From sequence record OR896822.1: a stretch of 64,000 bases of DNA. One strand, written 5' to 3'. This document shows positions 4,148 to 58,634 of this stretch, in pieces. The translations under genes and the position numbers were made by a program. Each line of letters opens with the position of its first letter. The first letter of the stretch is position 1. Below the pieces are notes generated by a model. It worked only from the letters and a program-made list of their open reading frames with translations. It did no database searches and had not been told where the DNA came from. The stretch is from Salmonella phage vB_SenS-3.

Positions 4148-4900
4148 ATGGGAAAAGCACGTCAAAAAAGAGAGAACCGCAATGGTTCAAGAAAGCGTGG
4201 CAACAAGTATGATAGTAACGTAATTCAAGCAGATTTCTCTGGTGATTACGCCAATCCAGTTGCTAAATCCCTAGTTGGTAAAAACCGTGAGCAAAAATCA
4301 TATATCAATATGATCAAGAACAACACAGTGACTGTTGGTATTGGTGAACCAGGTACTGGTAAAACCTTTATTCCGTCCGTTCTTGCAGCTCAGGAACTCG
4401 TAGACATTCACTCAGATATTGAGCAAGTGATCCTCGTGCGTCCGAACGAACCTCTAGGTAAATCTCTTGGTATGCTCCCAGGTGATCTGGCAGAAAAGCT
4501 AGAGCCTTGGTTGGAACCAATAGCCGATGGCATGAAATGGGCAATCGGTGATCACGCCTACAAAGGATATGTCGAACGTCAGAAAATTAAATTCCTGGCT
4601 ATCGAACATGCCCGTGGCCGAACTTTCAACAACTCCTATGTAATTGTCGATGAAGCTCAGAATATCTCCGTTGAAGCAATGATCTGTCTCCTGACTCGTG
4701 TAGGACAAGATTGTCGTTTAATTATCTGTGGGGATATAGCGCAGAAAGACATCAAGGGTGATTCAGGTCTAGCACTTCTTATGGAAGTCTATGAGAAGTA
4801 TGAAAACTCTCCTTTCTCTATGATCGAACTGATCGACAACGTTCGCTCACCAGAGTCTAAAGCATTCTACGATATCTTTAAGGATATGGGGAAGGTGTAA
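4148..4900 (+). CDS. phoH: PhoH-like ATPase
   Basis: Walker A GEPGTGKT and IVDEAQN Walker B; AGGAG RBS 8 nt upstream of ATG 4148. Confidence 0.85.
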   Translation: MGKARQKRENRNGSRKRGNKYDSNVIQADFSGDYANPVAKSLVGKNREQKSYINMIKNNTVTVGIGEPGTGKTFIPSVLAAQELVDIHSDIEQVILVRPNEPLGKSLGMLPGDLAEKLEPWLEPIADGMKWAIGDHAYKGYVERQKIKFLAIEHARGRTFNNSYVIVDEAQNISVEAMICLLTRVGQDCRLIICGDIAQKDIKGDSGLALLMEVYEKYENSPFSMIELIDNVRSPESKAFYDIFKDMGKV

Positions 4901-4901
4901 T

Positions 4902-5144
4902 ATGGGAAACGTCGTACATCTGCACCGCAAAACTAAGATTCACCGTACTTCACTGAGTGCTGCTAATATGATTACACGTAAGGAAGGGGAAGAAAGTCCT
5001 AAGACTACCCTAGCGTGGAAAATTGTAGCCTCTAATCCAAATCGGCCTTTTAATTATAACGAATTGAGTACTTCTATAGACATTCTTATGGCTAAGGAAA
5101 TACGACAGAAACTAACTGATATGACCGATAAACTTAAATGGTAA
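4902..5144 (+). CDS. hypothetical protein
   Basis: 80-aa ORF abutting phoH stop. Confidence 0.4.
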   Translation: MGNVVHLHRKTKIHRTSLSAANMITRKEGEESPKTTLAWKIVASNPNRPFNYNELSTSIDILMAKEIRQKLTDMTDKLKW

Positions 5145-5267: not shown

Positions 5268-7598
5268 ATGAGCCATCGCATCGAAAAAGTAATTAAACGT
5301 GACGGTACTGTTCAGGACTTTGCTCCTGAAAAACTCAATGATTGGGCTGCATGGGCATGTAAAGATACTGACGTAAGTTGGTCTGCCGTAGTTATGGCTG
5401 CCCTGAAAAATCTACCCAAAGGTGTTGTAGACTCCGATACACTCCAAGATGTGTTAATTAAAGCCGCTGAAGGTCTTATCAAAGACAACCCAGCATATGA
5501 TACTGTAGCAAAGGAATTACGTCTTGCGCAGATGCGTAAACGCCTATATGATTCCTTTGAACCTCCTTCTCTGCGTTTCTTCCACGATCATATGATTCGT
5601 GTTGGCGCCTGGGAAGACATGAGTGCATGGATTAGCGATGATCAGTTTGATGCTCTGAATCAAGTTATTGATCATGATCGCGATCGTTTATTCACCAGTG
5701 GTGGACTGAAACAGTTCTTCGACAAGTATTCCCGTCGTAATATTGCAACTGGTGAAATTTATGAAACCCCGCAGTTTGCCTACATGGGTATGGCAATGGC
5801 GATGTTATCTCAACCTAACTGGACAATTCTCGATGCAATCGACCTCTACAACGCAATGTCACTCCATAAAATCAACGTGCCGACTCCACCTCTCGTGGGT
5901 CTTAGGAGCAGCGACCGCGGTTTTGCTTCTTGTTGTCTTGTTGATAGTACTGATACCCTCGATTCAATCGACACAGCCGAGCACATCGTCTTCAAAATGG
6001 TCGCAGCCAGAGCGGGAATCGGGTATCATCTTGAAAGCCGATCAATTGCTGATCCGGTGCGAAATGGGGCATTCCCGCATTCCGGAAAACTGCCATATTA
6101 TCGACACATTGACCGATCAGTAAAAGCTAACACTCAGCAAACCCGTGGTGGTTCTGCTACTGTGTCTTACCCATACTTCGATCCTGAAATCATTCAGTTG
6201 ATGCAGGTTAAGCAGCAACGTGCTACAGACGAGAATAAAATCGATAAGATGGATTACTCTCTGAGCTTTAACAACCTTCTGTTAAAACGTTACCTGAAAA
6301 ATGAAGATATTACGCTAATGTCCTACTTCTACGCACCAGAAGTTCATGAAGCGTTTTATGGCGAAGATGAGGCTAAGTTTGAAGAAATCTACGTGGCAGC
6401 GGAGAAACGTGTGGCATCTCTTACAAAGATCGACCACGAAGGAAAAACAATTCCAGCAGCTCCTAGAATCTCTGCAAAAGAAATCCTAGATACTTGGTTA
6501 CGTATCCGTATGGAAACAGGGCGTATGTATGCTCATCACATTGGTGAATCTAACCGTCATGGTAACTTCCTTGACCCGATTCGTATGACCAACCTTTGTG
6601 TTGAAATTACTCAGCCAACCCGTCCATTCCATCACATTACGGAGCTGTATAAGACCCAAGATCAGTTAGACGATATGCGTCCAGAAGATATTGGTGAAGT
6701 ATCTCTGTGTAACTTAGGTGGTGTTGTACTAGGTCGTATGGAATCTCTGGCTGAATGGGAGAAAACTTGCTACATTCTTCTGAAATTCGTTGATACAATC
6801 ATCGAGATTCAGGATTACCCATTCCCAACTATGGAGTACACGGCTAAGAAACGTCGTAACGTTGGTATTGGTCTGATGAACGCAGCAGGTGCAATGGCAG
6901 CAGAAGGTTTGGCTTACGAAGGTGTTGAAGCCCGTAACTGGATTCACCGTGAAGCTGAAAAGCTGTCCTACTTCCTACATAAAGCCTCTGTACGTCTGGC
7001 TAAAGAACAAGGTGCATGTGACTGGTTTAATCGTACTAAGCCTTCGCAAGGAACTCTGGTAATCGACACGTACAAGAAAACTGTTGATGAACTGGTAACT
7101 GTAGGTCTAGAAATGGATTGGGAATCTCTGCGTGCAGATATTCTGAAATATGGTATGCGCAACTCTGTTCTGACTGCTCAGATGCCAGGTGAAAGTTCCT
7201 CTGTACTGCTAGGTGTTACTAACTCTATCGAACCGCCCCGTAAGATCGTATCTATCAAGGGTAGTGCAGTGAATAAAGTAATTGCAATTGCTCCAGGTGC
7301 AACTGATTGGGATACATTAATGAGCTATAAACTGGCTTATGATGTAGATCGTATCGAGTGGATCAAATGGGTAGCAACCATGCAGAAATTATTCAGCCAG
7401 TCTATCAGTACGAATATGTACTATGACTACACCAAGTTCGAGAATGAAATCATTCCCGGCCCAGTAGTAGTTCGTGACTTTATGACTGCTGTTAAGTACG
7501 GTTGGAAAACTTGGTACTACGCTAACTTCAACACTGAAAATGGTGGTGGAGCTGGTGAAGAAGCAGCAGGTTGTGCATCAGGTGGTTGTAACCTATAA
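5268..7598 (+). CDS. nrdA: ribonucleoside-diphosphate reductase large subunit (class Ia)
   Basis: ATP-cone-like N-terminus (IEKVIKRDG), catalytic-core NxC/E motifs; C-terminal CxxC tail; start set at ATG 5268 with AGGAAA RBS. Confidence 0.9.
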   Translation: MSHRIEKVIKRDGTVQDFAPEKLNDWAAWACKDTDVSWSAVVMAALKNLPKGVVDSDTLQDVLIKAAEGLIKDNPAYDTVAKELRLAQMRKRLYDSFEPPSLRFFHDHMIRVGAWEDMSAWISDDQFDALNQVIDHDRDRLFTSGGLKQFFDKYSRRNIATGEIYETPQFAYMGMAMAMLSQPNWTILDAIDLYNAMSLHKINVPTPPLVGLRSSDRGFASCCLVDSTDTLDSIDTAEHIVFKMVAARAGIGYHLESRSIADPVRNGAFPHSGKLPYYRHIDRSVKANTQQTRGGSATVSYPYFDPEIIQLMQVKQQRATDENKIDKMDYSLSFNNLLLKRYLKNEDITLMSYFYAPEVHEAFYGEDEAKFEEIYVAAEKRVASLTKIDHEGKTIPAAPRISAKEILDTWLRIRMETGRMYAHHIGESNRHGNFLDPIRMTNLCVEITQPTRPFHHITELYKTQDQLDDMRPEDIGEVSLCNLGGVVLGRMESLAEWEKTCYILLKFVDTIIEIQDYPFPTMEYTAKKRRNVGIGLMNAAGAMAAEGLAYEGVEARNWIHREAEKLSYFLHKASVRLAKEQGACDWFNRTKPSQGTLVIDTYKKTVDELVTVGLEMDWESLRADILKYGMRNSVLTAQMPGESSSVLLGVTNSIEPPRKIVSIKGSAVNKVIAIAPGATDWDTLMSYKLAYDVDRIEWIKWVATMQKLFSQSISTNMYYDYTKFENEIIPGPVVVRDFMTAVKYGWKTWYYANFNTENGGGAGEEAAGCASGGCNL

Positions 7599-50464: not shown

Positions 50465-50640
50465 CCCTGCCTGCCGAAATGCGAATGATAATGAGATTGA
50501 TTCGCATTTGAGAAGTTGAATGCGAATGATAATGATTCGCGTTTAGAAAGGGGAATGAGAATGGTTATCCTTTACAGAGTTGAATGCGAATGAGTTGCGT
50601 AATGAGAATGATTCGCATTTAGAAAGGGAAGTGAGAAACA
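50465..50640. repeat. cluster of GAATGCGAATGA / ATTCGCATT inverted and direct repeats
   Basis: At least four TGAATGCGAATGA-like units alternating with ATTCGCATTT/ATTCGCGTTT. Confidence 0.75.
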
Positions 50641-50652
50641 CTATTATTTAAG

Positions 50653-50661
50653 TTATCCACA
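50653..50661 (+). promoter_or_regulatory. consensus DnaA box TTATCCACA
   Basis: Exact 9-mer; TTATCAACA variants follow at 50715-50740. Confidence 0.5.
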
Positions 50662-50742
50662 GGTTTATTAACAGCACGATCTGACTTGACAAAATCCTAG
50701 TGATTTTGAGGCGTTATCAACAGACTTATCAACAGGTTATTC

Positions 50743-50762
50743 TACTGTATATTTATACAGTA
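50743..50762. repeat. 20-bp perfect palindrome TACTGTATATTTATACAGTA (core also at 54516)
   Basis: Self-complementary; CTGTATATTTATACAG core recurs at 54516-54531. Confidence 0.8.
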
Positions 50763-53264: not shown

Positions 53265-54266
53265 TTACTCTGTTTCGGCGCTTTGGGTAAAGGTAGAAAT
53301 GTCAATGCCTTTTACCATTTCATCGATCATTTCAGCAATATTGAAACTCTGTACCATTTCCAGCATTGCCGCTTCCATTGCCGCGCCTGCTACCGCTTTC
53401 GCTTTCGCATTAGTCGGGGCGTACTGGTCAACCGCTACGCTTAACAGGTTAGCGATCACTACGCGACCGATCGGCGTATCGATATAACCTTTAATCATAA
53501 ACGGCGCTTTTTTCGCCGCTACTTTTGTGATTTGAGTCAGTGCAATTTTACCCGCTTCCAATTTAGCAGCGTTAACAACGGCGGATTTATTAGCGGCAAC
53601 GATAGAAGATACTTTAGACATAATATTTCCTTTATTTTCAGTAGTTTGCGCATTTGCGCTTGAAGTTTGAGATTGTACAGCCTGTTTTGTTACATTGTCA
53701 AGCGATTTTAATGTAAATCCAGCGTTTGCAACGTTTGATTCATTCCCATACTCTAAATAATCGTTAGGAATCAACATGTTACCGCTAGCGCGTTCAAAAC
53801 ACAATACGCCAGTTGTTTCGATTGCGTCACTATCCGCACCTTTATAACTGGATGATAATTCACGCCAGATACTATTTAATAACGATCCGACACTATCCAG
53901 TCTGATATTATTTACTTTTGTTGCTGTTACCTGCTCTTTTTCTTGCACGTTATATAATCGCGCAATGTAACCACTATGAGACTCACTATAACCAACAATG
54001 ATAAAATCAATATCAGTTCCCCGACTATTACGGAAAATGTGATAATCACGGTTGAAAATTACTAGCGCCCTTGTCTGGTCTAGTAATAGCGTGAAATCAT
54101 CGACTGAATAATGAGTATCATTATTATCTAAAATTTCATCGTGAATCTTTTCAACCATTGCCGCCGTATGTTGTACGCTTGCCACACTACTACCATCTAG
54201 CAGGTTGCGCAAACTACCCTTAATAATAGTGGCGTTTGCTGGTACTGCAATTCTTACAGTAGACAT
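53265..54266 (-). CDS. hypothetical protein
   Basis: 333-aa ORF, first gene of minus-strand block, Ala/Lys-rich C-terminal half. Confidence 0.5.
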   Translation of the reverse strand: MSTVRIAVPANATIIKGSLRNLLDGSSVASVQHTAAMVEKIHDEILDNNDTHYSVDDFTLLLDQTRALVIFNRDYHIFRNSRGTDIDFIIVGYSESHSGYIARLYNVQEKEQVTATKVNNIRLDSVGSLLNSIWRELSSSYKGADSDAIETTGVLCFERASGNMLIPNDYLEYGNESNVANAGFTLKSLDNVTKQAVQSQTSSANAQTTENKGNIMSKVSSIVAANKSAVVNAAKLEAGKIALTQITKVAAKKAPFMIKGYIDTPIGRVVIANLLSVAVDQYAPTNAKAKAVAGAAMEAAMLEMVQSFNIAEMIDEMVKGIDISTFTQSAETE

Positions 54267-54515
54267 TTCTTTGTCTCCCTCGTTAATCGGTGAGTGAATG
54301 ATATAGATAATTGTTCGCTAGGGGCAAGAAAAAAGAAAAGGTTTTTTATTCCTTGCCTACTGCCCGTTTTTATGATAATCGCGCGTTTTCTATTTCTAGC
54401 TCTCTGTAAGCGTACACAAGGCTTTATTATAATAAGGGTAGCAGTGAGAAAACGCCGTGTAGCGCGTTCTAGGCCGCTTAAATTTGATTGCGGTTGTTAC
54501 TGCTACCATTCTACC

Positions 54516-54531
54516 CTGTATATTTATACAG
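54516..54531. repeat. palindrome core CTGTATATTTATACAG (second copy)
   Basis: Identical core to 50745-50760. Confidence 0.8.
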
Positions 54532-54553
54532 TAGGATAACCTGTATATAAGTC

Positions 54554-54611
54554 TGTGGATAAGTCACCAAAACGTCGCCTATTGCGTCAAGTTATTTTGT
54601 GCTGTGGATAA
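54554..54611 (-). promoter_or_regulatory. two DnaA boxes in minus orientation (TGTGGATAA at 54554 and 54603)
   Basis: Reverse complements of TTATCCACA; a third AGTGGATAA at 54888. Confidence 0.5.
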
Positions 54612-54941
54612 CTTTGTGCATAACCTAAATGATAGTGGTTCTCACTTAGCCCGATAGTTTCTCATAGTTATTATTTCTCATTAATTTATGTGTATATTAT
54701 ATATTATGAAATAGTTAGTTGGCTAATAGATTTTTAGGGTATTAATAGTCTGCTAACTGTTTCGGCTGTTACAATCCACCAGCGTGATTATCGTCCTAGC
54801 GATTATTAGTCTGCTAATGCTCTGATGCACGTCCAGACTTATTTGTCAATGAAAAATAACAGCAGAAAATACTTTTTTGAAAAATCAAGTGGATAACTCA
54901 TTAAATTTCATTTTTGCTTTTTGTATAAGTTATTAACAGGG

Positions 54942-54971
54942 TCTAAAACGCTCTGTAACGCATTCTAAGCG
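54942..54971 (+). repeat. 30-bp direct repeat copy B (TCTAAAACGCTCTGTAACGCATTCTAAGCG)
   Basis: 29/30 identical to 50793-50822. Confidence 0.8.
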
Positions 54972-55316
54972 CCTCAAAGGAAAAGATAGGCAATCATAAG
55001 GGGTACACCGAGAAAACCTCACCACGAGGATTTTAGATTTTGTCAAGTACCCTAGAGCAGATATAAATGAAAAAATTACTTGCTAAAATGGTTGTTTTGG
55101 TGTTATTCGCGCGCCCGTTTCATTAAATTTAATGCGCCGCTGGACGTTTGCGAGTAGTGGTTTTCTTTACGTTTCTTTACAAAAATACGCTTGCGCCCTT
55201 CTCGGTATTCTCCTATTATTTATCACGTAGGGCGGCAATGACGAACTACACGGCGGGGATAACAGCGATTGACAGTCTGTTTGACCTTTCAAAACCCTGC
55301 CATGCTCTTTAAAAAT

Positions 55317-55342
55317 TAGGGAACATCTTAAAGCCTATCGGC
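55317..55342. repeat. 26-bp inverted repeat, left arm
   Basis: TAGGGAACATCTTAAAGCCTATCGGC; partner at 55593-55618 (25/26 complementary). Confidence 0.75.
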
Positions 55343-55374
55343 GGTAAACTTAGATATTATAAGGAATCGACGAT

Positions 55375-55584
55375 ATGAAACAAACGCTTTTGATCACTGG
55401 CAAGCCTATCAAGTCGCTTGATAGCAGAACAAAAAATTTGTTGACAGTAGCGCAACGATCTGTAAAATACAGATTCAAGCAATACAAGAAAGGCAAGCAA
55501 CAAGGGCTGGAAATGGTGTGGCGTAATATAATGATTGATTTATATAACTCCCATCAAATCGAAAAAAGTTTAAAAAACGATTGA
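55375..55584 (+). CDS. hypothetical small basic protein enclosed by 26-bp inverted repeats
   Basis: 69-aa ORF, GGAATCGACGAT then ATG; flanked by IR arms. Confidence 0.3.
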   Translation: MKQTLLITGKPIKSLDSRTKNLLTVAQRSVKYRFKQYKKGKQQGLEMVWRNIMIDLYNSHQIEKSLKND

Positions 55585-55592
55585 CACGCTAG

Positions 55593-55618
55593 CCGATAGG
55601 TTTTAAGATGTTCCCTAG
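55593..55618. repeat. 26-bp inverted repeat, right arm
   Basis: GCCGATAGGTTTTAAGATGTTCCCTA. Confidence 0.75.
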
Positions 55619-55815
55619 TTTTTAAATAGTGATAACTTGATAAAATTTGACGGTCGGCACTTACCATAATGTGCCTCGCCCCCTAACTGGGATATAGCGG
55701 CCCGCGCGGAGTTCTTTAAATTTATTATATTGGCGAGCGGATTATAATCTAATAGCGTTTCAAAGTATCGAGGCGCTATTGTGGAATAATCCCACAATAA
55801 ACCGGAGTATTAAAA

Positions 55816-56067
55816 ATGCAAAACGTTATCACCGCACCGAAAGTAGGTCAATCCGTTTTTATTCCTTTCGTTACTAAAACGGATGAATTAACTGGAAAAG
55901 CTGAACGTATTAAAGGTGCGGCGCTTGATCCCTTTGATAAAATTGAAGCGGTATACGCGGAAACGGAACGCAGTAACAACGGCAAGCCAATTTATAACGT
56001 TCGCGTTAAATCTGGCGACGTTGTAAAAATCATTCAGAAAGATGATAAATGGCAAGCTATTAGCTAA
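55816..56067 (+). CDS. hypothetical protein
   Basis: 83-aa ORF with GGAG RBS. Confidence 0.4.
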   Translation: MQNVITAPKVGQSVFIPFVTKTDELTGKAERIKGAALDPFDKIEAVYAETERSNNGKPIYNVRVKSGDVVKIIQKDDKWQAIS

Positions 56068-56166
56068 TTAGTGTTACTTTTATATTCCCCTGAAATATGG
56101 GGAATATATGGATTAACATTAGTTAATCATAATCCCTTAATTAATAATTGAATGGAGTATTAAATT

Positions 56167-56583
56167 ATGTCTAACGTTAAAACCGAAAAAACCGCAAAAT
56201 TCGCTTGGAACGAAGAAAACACTGAAAAAGCTGTTTCTATGTATTCTGAAATGGTCGCTAAAAGCGGAATTGAATTTGCTAACAGTGACGGCCTGAAAGA
56301 AATTGCCGCCGCCGTTGGTGCTGCTAGTCCGGTGTCTGTACGTTCTAAACTGACAAGCGCAAAAGCCTATCAGAAAAGCGATAAACCTCGCAAAGTTGGC
56401 GGCGGTAGCTCAATTCGTAAAGCTCACTATGTGCGTGTTATTGCAAAACATGCCATCGACGCTGGCGTTATTAAAGACGCTGATGACTTGGCAAGCCTTG
56501 AAAGTGCTAAACTGGAAACACTGGACGCCGTAGCGCAATTATTAGGCGTAGCGGAGGAAGTAAAACAGGCCGCAGGTGAATAA
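56167..56583 (+). CDS. hypothetical protein
   Basis: 138-aa ORF, Ala-rich; hairpin AGCGGGG AATATT CCCCGCT follows. Confidence 0.45.
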   Translation: MSNVKTEKTAKFAWNEENTEKAVSMYSEMVAKSGIEFANSDGLKEIAAAVGAASPVSVRSKLTSAKAYQKSDKPRKVGGGSSIRKAHYVRVIAKHAIDAGVIKDADDLASLESAKLETLDAVAQLLGVAEEVKQAAGE

Positions 56584-56633
56584 ATTTTAATTAGCGGGGA
56601 ATATTCCCCGCTAACCCTTAAAGGAGAATAATC

Positions 56634-56861
56634 TTGATCTTTTATCCTAGCGAAGCGTTTATTTTAGGTTTATTTATTATTGCCGCTATATTTATATTTA
56701 ATTACGGCAAATATATAATTTCTATTATCGGCATTAATTCAGCTTATGCCGCTGATATGTTTAAACGTCAAGCTAATAAACAAAAATATCTGGCGATTAT
56801 ATTTTTAACGCTGGCTATTAGTTGCGGTTTTAGTTCTAGTCTTATGCCAATTCTAGAATAA
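56634..56861 (+). CDS. hypothetical membrane protein
   Basis: TTG start after AGGAG RBS; two TM helices. Confidence 0.3.
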   Translation: MIFYPSEAFILGLFIIAAIFIFNYGKYIISIIGINSAYAADMFKRQANKQKYLAIIFLTLAISCGFSSSLMPILE

Positions 56862-56969
56862 TATTGCAAATTATAACGCCTTTTAAATTGTCCTCACTTC
56901 AGGCAAGGCGTTATATTTGGCAATATTGCCAGTATTAATATTTATCCCTTTATAGGAGTTGATTTAGTT

Positions 56970-58634
56970 ATGAATATTTCCGCAGAAAAACAAGCTCAAA
57001 TTTTGAAAATGGCCGCTGATTTCAATTTCTACGGTAAGCGTTTACGCGCTACTAAGCTGGAAGTTTGCGACGATATTTCAAAAGCTGTTTATGATACGCC
57101 GAAACATTCAACCGCAATTTGTGACTGGCTGGAAGCAAACAAGCCAGCGAAACCGAAAGCGGCAAAAGCTGAAAAGGCGATTAAAAATGATGATCGCCCC
57201 GAGGCGGCGGGAATTGTTTCTAGCACCGTTGAGCAATGGGAAGTTAAATCCGGTCGCCGTTTTATTCTAACGTCGATTCAGAATAATACTTTCCCGCATA
57301 AAAACTTTTTAGCAAGTCTGGAAAAATTCGCTGAATATTGCGGCGCTGAATTACTTGTTAGCAAATTCATTTACAACAAAAACGGATTTCAGAACGGGGA
57401 AGGGGCAAACGGTATTAAATACGATCCCGCATTTGATAAATATGTTTGTGATAAAAACGTATTTTTAAATAACCGCCGCTTTGCCTTCATGGCTGAAATT
57501 AACGTTTTACCAACGGCAGATTATCCGCTTTCAGGATTCGCAGAAACCGCCACGGCTTTAAATATCGAAGGTCTGGCAATTGGTCACGCAAAAATTACCG
57601 CTGAAAGTGTTCCCGCGCTTAAAGGTGAAGTAGTGCGCCGTATGTATTCAACCGGAACGGCTACGCTTAAAAACTACATTCAGCAGAAAGCAGGACAAAA
57701 GGCCGAGGCTTTACATAACTACGGCGCTTTGCTGGTAGAATTTGACGACGGCGGAGAATTTTTCGTGCGCCAGCTTGAAACAATGGACGAAAGCGGAATG
57801 TTCTATGATCTGAATATTTGCGCCACTCCTAGCGGTTGCAAAGAAATTACCGGACACATTTTAGGCTTACAATATGGCGATATTCACGCCGAAAAATTAG
57901 ATGATGAATGCGCCGTCGCTTCATGGGCTAGTGAAAATTCATTGCTTGATATTCTTAAACCGAAATATCAGTTTATTCATGATGTGCATGATTTTACATC
58001 GCGTAACCATCACAACCGCGCTAGTGGTGTATTCCTTGCTAAACAGTACGCCGCAGGACGTGATAAAGTTATTGATGATCTCATTGATACCGGTCGCGTG
58101 TTGGAATCTATGGAACGTGAATTTAGTCAAACAATCATTGTGGAATCCAACCATGATTTAGCTCTTTCACGCTGGCTTGATGATCGTAACGCAAACATTA
58201 AGGACGATCCCGCAAACGCCGAGCTATATCACAGCCTAAACGCTGCGATTTACGCCGCAATTGCAAAACAAGATGATACCTTTAACGTATTGGATTACGC
58301 GCTTAGAAACGTTGCAGGTTGCGAATTTAACGCTATTTTCCTGACTACTGACCAGTCATTTAAAATCGCTGGCATTGAATGTGGCGTACATGGTCACAAC
58401 GGCATTAATGGCAGTCGGGGCAATCCTAAACAGTTTAAAAAGTTGGGACGCCTTAACACTGGTCACACTCACACGGCTAGCATATACGGCGGCGTTTATA
58501 CCGCTGGCGTGGCGGGGTCGCTTGATATGGGCTATAACGTGGGCGCGTCAAGCTGGACGCAAACGCATTTAATTACCTATGCAAACGGGCAACGTACTTT
58601 GATTGATTTCAAAAACGGTAAATTCTTTGCATAA
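56970..58634 (+). CDS. A1: pre-early A1-like protein (metallophosphoesterase domain)
   Basis: 554 aa; GDIHAE, HDVHD, GHNG, GHTH metallophosphatase motifs in C-terminal half; size matches T5 A1 as recalled. Confidence 0.65.
   Translation: MNISAEKQAQILKMAADFNFYGKRLRATKLEVCDDISKAVYDTPKHSTAICDWLEANKPAKPKAAKAEKAIKNDDRPEAAGIVSSTVEQWEVKSGRRFILTSIQNNTFPHKNFLASLEKFAEYCGAELLVSKFIYNKNGFQNGEGANGIKYDPAFDKYVCDKNVFLNNRRFAFMAEINVLPTADYPLSGFAETATALNIEGLAIGHAKITAESVPALKGEVVRRMYSTGTATLKNYIQQKAGQKAEALHNYGALLVEFDDGGEFFVRQLETMDESGMFYDLNICATPSGCKEITGHILGLQYGDIHAEKLDDECAVASWASENSLLDILKPKYQFIHDVHDFTSRNHHNRASGVFLAKQYAAGRDKVIDDLIDTGRVLESMEREFSQTIIVESNHDLALSRWLDDRNANIKDDPANAELYHSLNAAIYAAIAKQDDTFNVLDYALRNVAGCEFNAIFLTTDQSFKIAGIECGVHGHNGINGSRGNPKQFKKLGRLNTGHTHTASIYGGVYTAGVAGSLDMGYNVGASSWTQTHLITYANGQRTLIDFKNGKFFA

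What the first reader, a model, noticed from the sequence alone, without database searches (positions are those of the whole stretch)
55317..55618. Small ORF enclosed by a 26-bp near-perfect inverted repeat
TAGGGAACATCTTAAAGCCTATCGGC (55317-55342) and its reverse complement with one mismatch (55593-55618) flank the 69-codon ORF 55375-55584. Such a long stem is unusual for a terminator and could be an RNase III-processed stem, an invertible or excisable mini-cassette, or a regulator binding-site pair.
Basis: seen in the sequence. Interest (0 to 1): 0.55.

Follow-up and report, generated by a model that had tools for sequence, protein, structure and literature searches.

The report
Promoter-embedded RNA stem bracketing phage hdi
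The inverted repeat is real and is the already-annotated 'IRA/IRA′' pair of phage T5; comparison of many relatives suggests that it forms a long RNA stem closing the cell-division-inhibitor gene hdi into a loop, with its downstream arm doubling as the core of the strong promoter P-D/E20.

Summary
The repeat is real and longer than reported: 38 nt at 92%, at 55305-55342 and 55592-55629. The window is a T5-like Salmonella phage, in the pre-early region. The repeat is the 'inverted repeat A/A′' already annotated in T5, and the ORF is Hdi (T5.008), a published FtsZ inhibitor.

Every Demerecviridae locus with enough upstream sequence, across five genera plus an unclassified contig, keeps a 24-38 bp stem here although the sequence diverges. 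Of 22 pairs, 17 show compensatory changes and no shuffle matches this. Arm mismatches are mostly G·U on the sense strand, with no matching mutation bias. Pectobacterium phages carry two or three tandem units with unrelated arms.

A conserved, unannotated candidate promoter upstream would put the left arm in the hdi 5′UTR.

Best reading: a sense-strand long-range RNA stem, probably an RNase III substrate, though cleavage is untested. An invertible switch, an operator pair and a mirror promoter are all disfavoured.

The parts
55191..55219 (+). Candidate promoter for hdi: TTGCGC (55191-55196), 17-nt spacer, TATTAT (55214-55219). The inferred start is near 55225, which would put the left arm in the hdi 5′UTR.
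   Evidence: Read from the sequence. The same TTGC[GA][CGA]-N16/17-TA[TA]TAT element, followed in most loci by TTATCTCGTAGG, is conserved 60-150 nt upstream of the left arm in all Tequintavirus, Epseptimavirus and Sugarlandvirus loci, T5 included. It is not annotated in either T5 record. Its activity is inferred, not shown.
55252..55301 (+). Leader hairpin: GGCGGGG (55252-55258) pairs with CCCTGCC (55295-55301). Its sequence and loop size vary between phages, but a hairpin is kept at this position.
   Evidence: Predicted in the minimum-energy fold of 55225-55640. T5 has a CGGCGG/CCGCCG hairpin at the equivalent place. Variants are visible in the sequences printed.
55304..55317 (+). Leader motif GCTCTTTAAAAATT, which directly precedes the left arm and, in this phage, forms part of the extended arm.
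   Evidence: It precedes every left arm in every genus and every tandem unit. It is not enriched genome-wide: 5 matches against 2.6 expected. Its role is unexplained.
55305..55342 (+). Left arm (T5 'inverted repeat A′'). The universally conserved core is 55317-55342.
   Evidence: Annotated as a repeat_region in phage bux and as 'inverted repeat A′' in T5 record AY587007.
55375..55584 (+). hdi (T5p008 homologue, 69 aa). Its Shine-Dalgarno AAGGA is at 55361-55365. The stop codon TGA (55582-55584) lies inside the -35 hexamer of P-D/E20.
   Evidence: ORF. It is 77% identical to T5p008, E = 8e-36. Hdi function is described in PMC10714956.
55441..55468 (+). Promoter P-H22 homologue inside hdi: TTGACA, 16-nt spacer, TAAAAT.
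   Evidence: The scan matches 11 of 12 consensus positions. It is annotated as 'similar to P-H 22' in phage S114 and as P-H 22 in T5 record AY692264.
55581..55609 (+). Promoter P-D/E20 homologue: -35 TTGACA at 55581-55586, 17-nt spacer, -10 TAAGAT at 55604-55609. The inferred +1 is at 55616/55617, which is the end of the core right arm.
   Evidence: The scan matches 10 of 12 consensus positions. Annotated in S114 and in T5 record AY692264. The +1 position is inferred from promoter geometry only.
55592..55629 (+). Right arm (T5 'inverted repeat A'). The core is 55592-55617. It spans the promoter spacer, the -10, the discriminator and the start site.

Best explanation
The repeat is the T5 IRA/IRA′ pair. 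It is maintained because the two arms base-pair in the sense-strand RNA.

Transcripts that encode Hdi must start upstream of the left arm. The most likely source is the conserved candidate promoter at 55191-55219. These transcripts carry the left arm in their 5′UTR. When RNA polymerase reads on through the P-D/E20 region, the RNA copy of that promoter's spacer, -10 and start region pairs with the left arm. The result is a 26-38 bp duplex that closes the whole hdi cistron into a 249-nt loop.

Transcripts that start at P-D/E20 itself begin at the end of the core arm. They therefore lack the core duplex.

The duplex is consistently at least 24 bp long, which makes it a natural substrate for host RNase III. 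Cleavage would excise an hdi mini-mRNA and separate it from the downstream p007-A2-A1 message.

Shown here: the repeat, its overlap with the promoter, and its conservation by compensatory change with a sense-strand G·U bias. Inferred: activity of the upstream promoter, formation of the stem in vivo, RNase III cleavage, and the consequence of cleavage.
For: (a) Identity. T5 records annotate IRA 4682-4706 and IRA′ 4950-4974 flanking T5p008, with P-D/E20 over IRA.

(b) Conservation. Every Demerecviridae locus with enough upstream sequence has the repeat. This covers Tequintavirus, Epseptimavirus, Sugarlandvirus, Pectobacterium phage My1, Hongcheonvirus and an unclassified metagenome contig, giving 29 distinct arm pairs.

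(c) Covariation. On 24 distinct arm constructs, 96.9% of cells pair, against 30-44% when the partner is slid. Of 22 pairs, 17 show both-sided changes. None of 500 shuffles reaches any measure.

(d) Strand asymmetry. There are 38 G·U cells against 7 A·C cells, and about 15 G·U sites against 5-6 A·C sites (binomial p about 0.02-0.04). Only about 3-5 mismatches are transversions. A control on the same strand in p007-A2-A1 gives a G·U-creating fraction of 0.48-0.53 overall and at third codon positions, and 0.29-0.43 at non-coding sites.

(e) Tandem units. DU_PP_V has three and My1 has two, with unrelated arms. Each folds as its own long-range stem, z = -10.5.

(f) Variable interior. The arms are kept whether the interior holds hdi alone, an extra ORF plus hdi, an unrelated ORF alone, or other ORFs. 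The geometry is constant: the first ATG is 16-34 nt after the left arm, and the last stop is 4-19 nt before the right arm.

(g) Bulges. The 1-nt bulges in Sugarlandvirus and My1 fall in the left-arm copy of the -10 hexamer. This breaks an antisense -10 but keeps RNA pairing.

(h) Expression. The upstream promoter-like element is conserved. Hdi acts within 10 min of infection, so hdi is transcribed from upstream of P-H22.

(i) Folds. The stem closes in the window, T5 and Roth50, with z between -5.4 and -8.0.
Against: - No RNA-end data were available, so neither the stem in vivo nor RNase III cleavage is shown.
- No paper linking T5 pre-early mRNA to RNase III was found.
- The G·U excess is only moderately significant when counted by independent sites. 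The Gostya9/L039 clade, My1 and DU_PP_V unit 3 each carry one or two A·C mismatches.
- Compensatory change alone is also expected from gene conversion between the arms or from a co-evolving DNA-binding protein.
- A loop of 140-406 nt filled with translating ribosomes may delay or prevent stem closure.
- The upstream promoter matches only 3 of 6 positions in its -35 hexamer and is not annotated or tested.
- It is unexplained why the 3′ arm should coincide so exactly with a promoter core.
Confidence: 0.45

Rival explanations
1. The sense-RNA stem forms but works without RNase III. It would close the cistron 5′ to 3′, acting on mRNA stability or translation. For example, it could protect the ends, bring the stop codon next to the ribosome-binding site for re-initiation, or hold read-through hdi mRNA in a defined state, as in the hok fold-back pairing.
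For: All the RNA-level evidence applies. The geometry is tight and constant. The last stop is 4-19 nt before the right arm, so a terminating ribosome would melt the inner stem. The first ATG is 16-34 nt after the left arm. The enclosed proteins include a toxic host-takeover factor.
Against: Closing a loop or protecting ends needs far fewer than 24-38 bp. The consistent length of two or more helical turns points to a reader of double-stranded RNA. There are no experimental data either way.
Confidence: 0.25
2. A DNA-level operator pair. A phage or host protein (for example A1 or A2, involved in pre-early shut-off) binds both arms and loops the DNA, occluding P-D/E20 and enclosing P-H22.
For: One arm covers the promoter core, and the arms are 250-400 bp apart, as in looping systems. 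A1 is reported to dampen transcription from pre-early promoters. Covariation of the two arms is compatible with a co-evolving binding protein.
Against: - The three tandem units in DU_PP_V have unrelated arm sequences, so no single protein could read them all.
- Arms of 24-38 bp are much longer than protein half-sites.
- The mismatches are strand-asymmetric (G·U far exceeding A·C), which double-stranded DNA recognition does not predict.
- One-nucleotide bulges are tolerated.
Confidence: 0.08
3. A mirror promoter or invertible promoter switch. The left arm would be an inverted copy of the P-D/E20 core. Recombination between the arms would flip the interior, which carries the -35 and P-H22, and re-point transcription leftward.
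For: The -35 lies just inside the interior and the -10 lies in the arm. A flip would therefore rebuild a complete leftward promoter at the left arm (sequence). Leftward pre-early genes start about 1.1 kb to the left.
Against: - None of 420 records carries the inverted junction.
- In the present orientation the left arm has no -35 on the minus strand (CTAAGT, 2 of 6).
- In Sugarlandvirus and My1 the left-arm copy of the -10 is broken by an indel.
- No recombinase is annotated nearby.
Confidence: 0.04
4. A single-stranded DNA or recombination structure, or a repeat with no function that is kept alike by gene conversion. One form of this is a hairpin on the nicked strand during injection, replication or recombination.
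For: G·T pairs are also tolerated in single-stranded DNA of the same strand. T5 virion DNA is reported as nicked in the 'minus' strand, which may be the window's + strand if that paper uses the record's strand numbering (PMC10644984). L015 has the same 1-bp insertion in both arms, which gene conversion would also produce.
Against: - A functionless 25-bp repeat would not survive across genera whose p007 proteins are only 44-57% identical while its sequence turns over.
- Arms of 24-30 bp with 140-400 bp spacers are poor substrates for cruciform extrusion or efficient conversion.
- The tight bracketing of cistrons and the coincidence with promoters fit transcription units rather than replication.
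Confidence: 0.1

Closest known systems
T5 'inverted repeat A / A′' (GenBank AY587007 annotation; 'Repeat Region 1' in Davison, bioRxiv 10.1101/866236)
   Same: It is the same element. The arms flank T5p008/hdi at the same positions relative to P-D/E20 and P-H22, and the core sequence is nearly identical.
   Different: In this Epseptimavirus the pairing extends to 38 nt and position 5 of the core is A-U instead of U-A. The sources read here list the repeat, and Davison notes that it is conserved, but they assign no function.
RNase III processing stalks of rRNA operons (16S and 23S)
   Same: Long-range pairing between sequences 5′ and 3′ of a functional RNA encloses the whole unit in a loop. The duplex is longer than two helical turns.
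   Different: Here the loop is a short mRNA cistron, the 3′ strand doubles as a promoter core, and cleavage has not been shown.
RNase III sites in phage T7 early mRNA
   Same: A phage early polycistronic message from strong sigma-70 promoters would be cut between cistrons by host RNase III.
   Different: T7 sites are local hairpins with internal loops that lie between genes. They are not long-range stems that bracket a cistron, and they do not overlap promoters.
hok/sok-type fold-back (fbi) 5′-3′ pairing in toxin mRNAs
   Same: The 5′ and 3′ ends of a short mRNA for a toxic peptide pair and enclose the reading frame.
   Different: There is no antisense RNA partner or 3′-trimming logic evident here, and the stems are much longer.
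T4-type PeSL cassettes (promoter-early stem-loop motifs flanking small early ORFs; recalled from the literature, not re-read here)
   Same: Small host-takeover ORFs sit in modular units, each with its own sigma-70 promoter and a structured element, and the content varies between relatives.
   Different: PeSLs are direct repeats, each containing a local stem-loop. Here each unit has its own inverted arms that pair across the ORF.
Invertible promoter switches (fimS, hin)
   Same: Inverted repeats flank a segment that carries promoter elements.
   Different: No inverted state was found in 420 genomes, no recombinase is annotated nearby, and the arms are unit-specific.

Membership tests
T5 inverted repeat A/A′ | The arms flank the T5p008 (hdi) homologue. 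| tested here: met
   The ORF is 77% identical to T5p008. The T5 features are at 4682-4706 and 4950-4974, around the CDS at 4715-4918.
T5 inverted repeat A/A′ | The downstream arm lies within promoter P-D/E20, and the arm sequence is homologous. | tested here: met
   TTGACA-17-TAAGAT at 55581-55609 overlaps the arm at 55592-55629. In the arm alignment the cores are identical except at the one or two positions that vary between lineages.
RNase III substrate | A double-stranded RNA helix of about 20-22 bp or more. | tested here: met
   Predicted stems are 24-38 bp in every lineage. This is a prediction, not structure probing.
RNase III substrate | Both strands of the helix are present on one transcript. 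| tested here: inconclusive
   A conserved candidate promoter lies upstream of the left arm. The scan found no terminator-like site between 55220 and 55629. Hdi is made during infection. Transcript ends are not mapped.
RNase III substrate | rnc-dependent staggered cleavage in vivo or in vitro. | not testable with these tools
   No end-mapping data were accessible, and no literature link was found.
Intrinsic (Rho-independent) terminator | A short-loop G+C-rich hairpin immediately followed by a U tract. | tested here: not met
   The loops are 140-406 nt. A U tract follows the core stem only in some Epseptimavirus phages (GTTTTT at 55618-55623). It is absent in T5, Sugarlandvirus and DU_PP_V unit 1.
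Invertible DNA switch | Both orientations are found among genomes or populations. | tested here: not met
   None of 420 records covers at least 80% of the synthetic inverted junction.
Invertible DNA switch | A dedicated site-specific recombinase is encoded nearby. | tested here: not met
   No recombinase is annotated within 5 kb in phage S114, phage bux or T5. Only HNH endonucleases are present.
Operator pair / DNA looping | One shared recognition sequence at all sites, with sequence conservation that is strand-symmetric. | tested here: not met
   Arm sequences differ between the tandem units. G·U cells number 38 against 7 A·C cells.
Transposon / MITE terminal inverted repeats | Multiple dispersed copies and target-site duplication. 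| tested here: not met
   The core occurs only as the two arms in 64 kb. The flanks (CCATG and TGATA) are not duplicated.
Rfam RNA families | A match to a curated covariance model. | tested here: not met
   There were no matches at E ≤ 1 in 54200-56200.

The most novel reading that the evidence does not exclude
Demerecviridae pre-early regions may be built from 'closed-loop cistron' modules. Each module has an AU-rich leader (GCUCUUUAAAAA), a unit-specific 5′ arm, one or two small host-takeover ORFs, and a 3′ arm that is also the spacer/-10 core of the next promoter. Read-through RNA from one unit would fold onto the next promoter's transcript copy and be cut or insulated there. Every unit's mRNA would then have a defined 5′ end whatever promoter made it. 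Units could be duplicated, lost or refilled without disturbing their neighbours. This would be a previously unrecognised way of coupling promoter sequence to mRNA processing.
Probability: 0.25. Interest if true: 0.7.

Novelty: new variant of a known kind. Interest (0 to 1): 0.5.

Why it matters
P-D/E20 and P-H22 are classic, very strong T5 promoters. The pre-early region controls host takeover and two-step DNA injection, yet how pre-early expression is organised and shut off is unresolved.

If a promoter core has been kept for a long time as one strand of a conserved RNA duplex, then promoter sequence in these phages is under a dual constraint, one on the DNA signal and one on RNA structure. 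Expression of Hdi and its neighbours would then be set after transcription as well as at initiation.

The idea gives a concrete hypothesis that can be tested with an rnc host for a repeat that has sat unexplained in the T5 annotation. It also suggests a design principle for compact, insulated expression units. If the stem turns out to have no effect, the feature remains a well-conserved curiosity.

Tried and rejected
- **Invertible switch.** I built both inverted-state junctions and searched one against 50,697 phage records. No full-length hit was found. Rejected.
- **Mirror promoter on the minus strand.** I found no -35 by inspection, and the -10 copy is broken by indels in two genera. Rejected.
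- **Intrinsic terminator.** The U tract is not conserved and the loops are far too long. Rejected.
- **Strand-biased mutation as the cause of the G·U excess.** Polarised transitions in the flanking genes on the same strand show no bias. Rejected.
- **Mobile element.** The arm is single-copy and there is no target duplication. Rejected.
- **Known RNA family.** Rfam found nothing.
- **Leader motif as a genome-wide signal.** It is not enriched.
- **Link of the leader's GCGC to T5 nick sites.** The BF23 paper gave no nick consensus. Dropped.
- **More distant relatives.** A second IMG/VR scan with a protein profile added no loci. Klebsiella phage FKP3 (Stephanstirmvirinae) has a p007 homologue but no repeat, and it is an unrelated phage.
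- **Literature.** Davison 2015 (PMC4743489) is not held. A search for the mapped start of P-D/E20 found nothing, so +1 rests on geometry. My first multiple alignment included a wrong T5 range, and that row should be ignored.

Full report
**1. Observation**

The repeat finder extends the pair to 38 nt at 92% complementarity, at 55305-55342 and 55592-55629, with 249 nt between the arms. The 69-codon ORF at 55375-55584 is present.

The 24-nt core occurs exactly twice in the window, against zero expected in 100 shuffles. The pair is the second-longest inverted repeat in the 64 kb. RNA folds of 55295-55640 and 55225-55640 pair the arms along their whole length, with z = -7.1 and -7.4.

**2. Where the repeat lies**

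The region is 99.9% identical to Salmonella phage RA40 and matches 444 T5-like phage records. In annotated relatives it lies in the pre-early, first-step-transfer part of the terminal repeat. It sits at the head of the operon p008-p007-A2-p005-A1-dmp.

Phage S114's annotators label the ORF 'similar to T5p008'. They also mark two promoters, 'similar to P-H 22' inside the ORF and 'similar to P-D/E 20' at its end. The window has the corresponding sites: TTGACA-16-TAAAAT at 55441-55468 and TTGACA-17-TAAGAT at 55581-55609.

**3. The repeat is already annotated**

T5 record AY587007 carries 'inverted repeat A' (4682-4706) and 'inverted repeat A′' (4950-4974). Record AY692264 places T5p008 at 4715-4918, P-D/E 20 at 4664-4738 and P-H 22 at 4810-4867. 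The finding is therefore the IRA/IRA′ pair.

Davison's preprint lists IRA, IRA′ and IRB as 'Repeat Region 1'. It notes that the repeat regions are conserved, and it excludes Region 1 from the injection-stop signal without giving it a function.

T5p008 is Hdi, a published FtsZ-targeting division inhibitor. It acts within 10 min of infection. A T5 Δhdi mutant is viable but is outcompeted by wild type. The window protein is 77% identical to T5p008. A 2026 preprint reports that fragments of this locus could not be cloned because of the two strong promoters.

**4. Anatomy**

The right arm begins 5 nt after the -35 hexamer of P-D/E20. It contains the last 12 nt of the spacer, the -10 hexamer TAAGAT (55604-55609) and the discriminator. 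The core arm ends at the inferred start site, 55616/55617. That start site is inferred from geometry, because no mapped start was retrievable.

The hdi stop codon (55582-55584) lies inside the -35 hexamer. Transcripts that start at P-D/E20 therefore lack the core arm. Only RNA that starts upstream of the left arm carries both arms.

P-H22 lies inside the ORF, so Hdi must be translated from such an upstream transcript. A promoter-like element sits 85 nt upstream of the arm: TTGCGC (55191-55196), a 17-nt spacer, and TATTAT (55214-55219), followed by TTATCACGTAGGGCGG. With small variations it is conserved in every Tequintavirus, Epseptimavirus and Sugarlandvirus locus, T5 included. Neither T5 record annotates it.

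Between this element and the arm lie a hairpin of variable sequence and the motif GCTCTTTAAAAATT.

**5. Comparative evidence**

I collected about 75 loci from IMG/VR, metagenome contigs and GenBank. Every Demerecviridae locus with enough upstream sequence has an inverted repeat in the same place. Together they give 29 distinct arm pairs.

The arm sequence differs by lineage:

| Lineage | Left-arm core |
|---|---|
| T5 | TGGGTACATCTTAAAGCCTATCGGC |
| This window and other Epseptimavirus | AGGGAACATC... |
| Gostya9 / L039 | CAGGTGCATTTTAAAGCCCATCGGC |
| Sugarlandvirus | ATTGGGATTCTATAAAAAGCGTTATCGGC |
| My1 | GAACATCATCAATAAAGCCCATTCGCT |
| DU_PP_V | ATCGGAAAATTATCATATAGCTCGTTTGC |
| L062 (metagenome contig) | AATCTGGTGTCTATTATGCGCCGCT |

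In each case the right arm follows the left arm and contains the local -10 hexamer: TAAGAT, TAAAAT, TATTAT, TATGAT or CATAAT.

I aligned 24 distinct arm constructs. RNAalifold recovers a 22-bp stem, and 17 of its pairs show both-sided changes. In the pair count, 96.9% of cells are paired, against 30-44% when the partner is slid. None of 500 shuffles reaches any of the five measures.

**6. RNA or DNA?**

Four observations favour RNA of the sense strand.

- **Mismatch types.** Mismatches between the arms are mostly transitions that read as G·U on the + strand. There are 38 G·U cells against 7 A·C cells. Read as sense RNA, 96.9% of cells pair, against 91.0% read as antisense RNA. Counted by distinct site and lineage, the split is about 15 G·U to 5-6 A·C (binomial p about 0.02-0.04), with only about 3-5 transversions. 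The widespread variants are all G·U.
- **Mutation-bias control.** I polarised the transitions in the downstream genes on the same strand. The G·U-creating classes (C>T plus A>G) make up 0.48-0.53 of transitions overall and at third codon positions, and 0.29-0.43 at non-coding sites. Mutation bias therefore does not explain the excess.
- **Tandem units.** Pectobacterium phage DU_PP_V carries three tandem units and My1 carries two. Each unit has unrelated arms, its own small ORF or ORFs, the same leader motif, and a right arm that looks like the spacer and -10 of a promoter whose -35 lies just inside the unit. The 956-nt DU_PP_V region folds into three separate long-range stems, z = -10.5. A single DNA-binding protein could not read such different arms.
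- **Bulges.** In Sugarlandvirus and My1 the stem has a single-nucleotide bulge. It falls inside the left-arm copy of the -10 hexamer. This removes a potential antisense -10 while costing little RNA pairing.

**7. What the arms enclose**

The loop content varies, but the bracket does not. The window and T5 hold hdi alone. L015 and L035 hold an extra 52-aa ORF plus hdi. Gostya9 and L039 hold an unrelated 56-aa ORF alone. Sugarlandvirus holds a homologue of that ORF plus an Hdi-like protein. My1 holds an Hdi-like protein plus a 53-aa ORF. L062 holds two other ORFs.

In all cases the first ATG is 16-34 nt after the left arm, and the last stop codon is 4-19 nt before the right arm. The stem therefore serves the transcription unit rather than Hdi specifically. 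The pattern looks more like differential loss and gain inside a fixed frame than like a mobile cassette.

**8. Mechanism**

It is shown that complementarity is under selection, that the selection shows a sense-strand signature, and that the 3′ arm is a promoter core. The following steps are inferred.

- The upstream promoter fires.
- Read-through RNA forms the duplex.
- A perfect or near-perfect duplex of 24-38 bp is cut by host RNase III.

The consistent length of at least two helical turns is the main argument for a reader of double-stranded RNA rather than a simple closing helix.

Cleavage would excise an hdi mini-mRNA. It would also give the downstream message a 5′ end close to that of primary P-D/E20 transcripts. 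I put 0.45 on this reading and 0.25 on an RNA stem that acts without RNase III.

I found no paper connecting T5 pre-early RNA to RNase III, and Rfam has no matching family.

**9. Rivals tested**

- **Flip switch.** Geometrically this is attractive, because the -35 and P-H22 would be re-pointed leftward. However, none of 420 records carries the inverted junction, and no recombinase is annotated nearby.
- **Mirror promoter.** It lacks a -35 on the minus strand (CTAAGT).
- **Terminator.** It fails on loop length and on the non-conserved U tract.
- **Transposon ends.** They fail on copy number.
- **Gene conversion, or a single-stranded DNA structure on the same strand.** These cannot be fully excluded. 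They do not explain the tight fit to cistrons and promoters, or survival of the repeat across genera.

**10. Verdict**

This analysis adds four points:
- the overlap with the promoter core;
- the covariation across genera and its strand bias;
- the tandem modules in Pectobacterium phages;
- the conserved candidate promoter upstream.

Interest is moderate. The stem is a new variant of known RNA-processing stems, and it awaits a simple experiment in an rnc host.

Noticed in passing
window 50629-50760 and 54516-54647: This is the longest inverted repeat in the window: 132-nt arms, 76% complementary, 3755 nt apart. It brackets the whole leftward pre-early operon. It probably corresponds to Davison's IRD′spacerIRC′ / IRCspacerIRD pair, which carries DnaA boxes. 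A TTATCCACA box is visible at 50653-50661.
   Followed up: partly
L063 (Pectobacterium phage DU_PP_V) about 1419-2335; L042 (My1) 1514-2208: There are three (DU_PP_V) or two (My1) tandem units. Each consists of a small ORF or ORFs bracketed by its own 24-38 nt inverted repeat. Each is preceded by GCTCTTTAA[AT]AA and ends in a promoter-like spacer and -10. One DU_PP_V unit encodes a 39-aa hydrophobic peptide.
   Followed up: yes
window 55304-55317; also 55711-55724: The leader motif GCTCTTTAAAAATT always lies on the sense strand, just 5′ of each left arm, and usually follows a stem. A related GTTCTTTAAATTTA lies in the p007 leader. The motif is not enriched genome-wide, and its role is unknown. 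It might be an RNase E site, an S1-binding platform or part of the initial transcribed sequence.
   Followed up: partly
window 55191-55219: A conserved but unannotated promoter-like element (TTGCGC-17-TATTAT) lies upstream of hdi. The simple scan missed it because its -35 matches only 3 of 6 positions.
   Followed up: partly
window 56860-56927: A 23-nt, 91% complementary hairpin with a 22-nt loop lies between the p005 homologue and the A1 start at 56970. It may be a regulatory or processing structure upstream of A1.
   Followed up: no
window 56589-56616 (minus strand): A strong terminator-like palindrome, TTAGCGGGGAATATTCCCCGCTAA, lies just after A2. It is symmetric, so it could act on either strand.
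   Followed up: no
window 55357-55385 (minus strand): TTGTTT-16-TATAAT on the minus strand overlaps the hdi ribosome-binding site and start codon. It could be a leftward antisense promoter reading through the left arm. The TATAA may instead simply reflect the TAAGGA Shine-Dalgarno context.
   Followed up: no
L015 and L035/L036, interior of the repeat: A 52-aa ORF (MQTIYNDHPATHDTIEKIEQW...) is inserted between the left arm and hdi. The loop grows from 243 to 398 nt while the arms stay intact. L015 also has the same 1-bp insertion in both arms.
   Followed up: partly
L009 (about 250 nt upstream of the candidate promoter); L002 4036-4320; L066 936-1277; T5 5411-5929: HNH homing-endonuclease genes are inserted at different points of the non-coding region upstream of hdi in different phages. 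This fits a hotspot for endonuclease invasion.
   Followed up: no
L065 (Gostya9) about 800-920: About nine tandem copies of TATAGTTATTATTTC lie in the non-coding region upstream. This is probably the DRD repeat array of the injection-stop region, brought close by deletion of the leftward genes.
   Followed up: no
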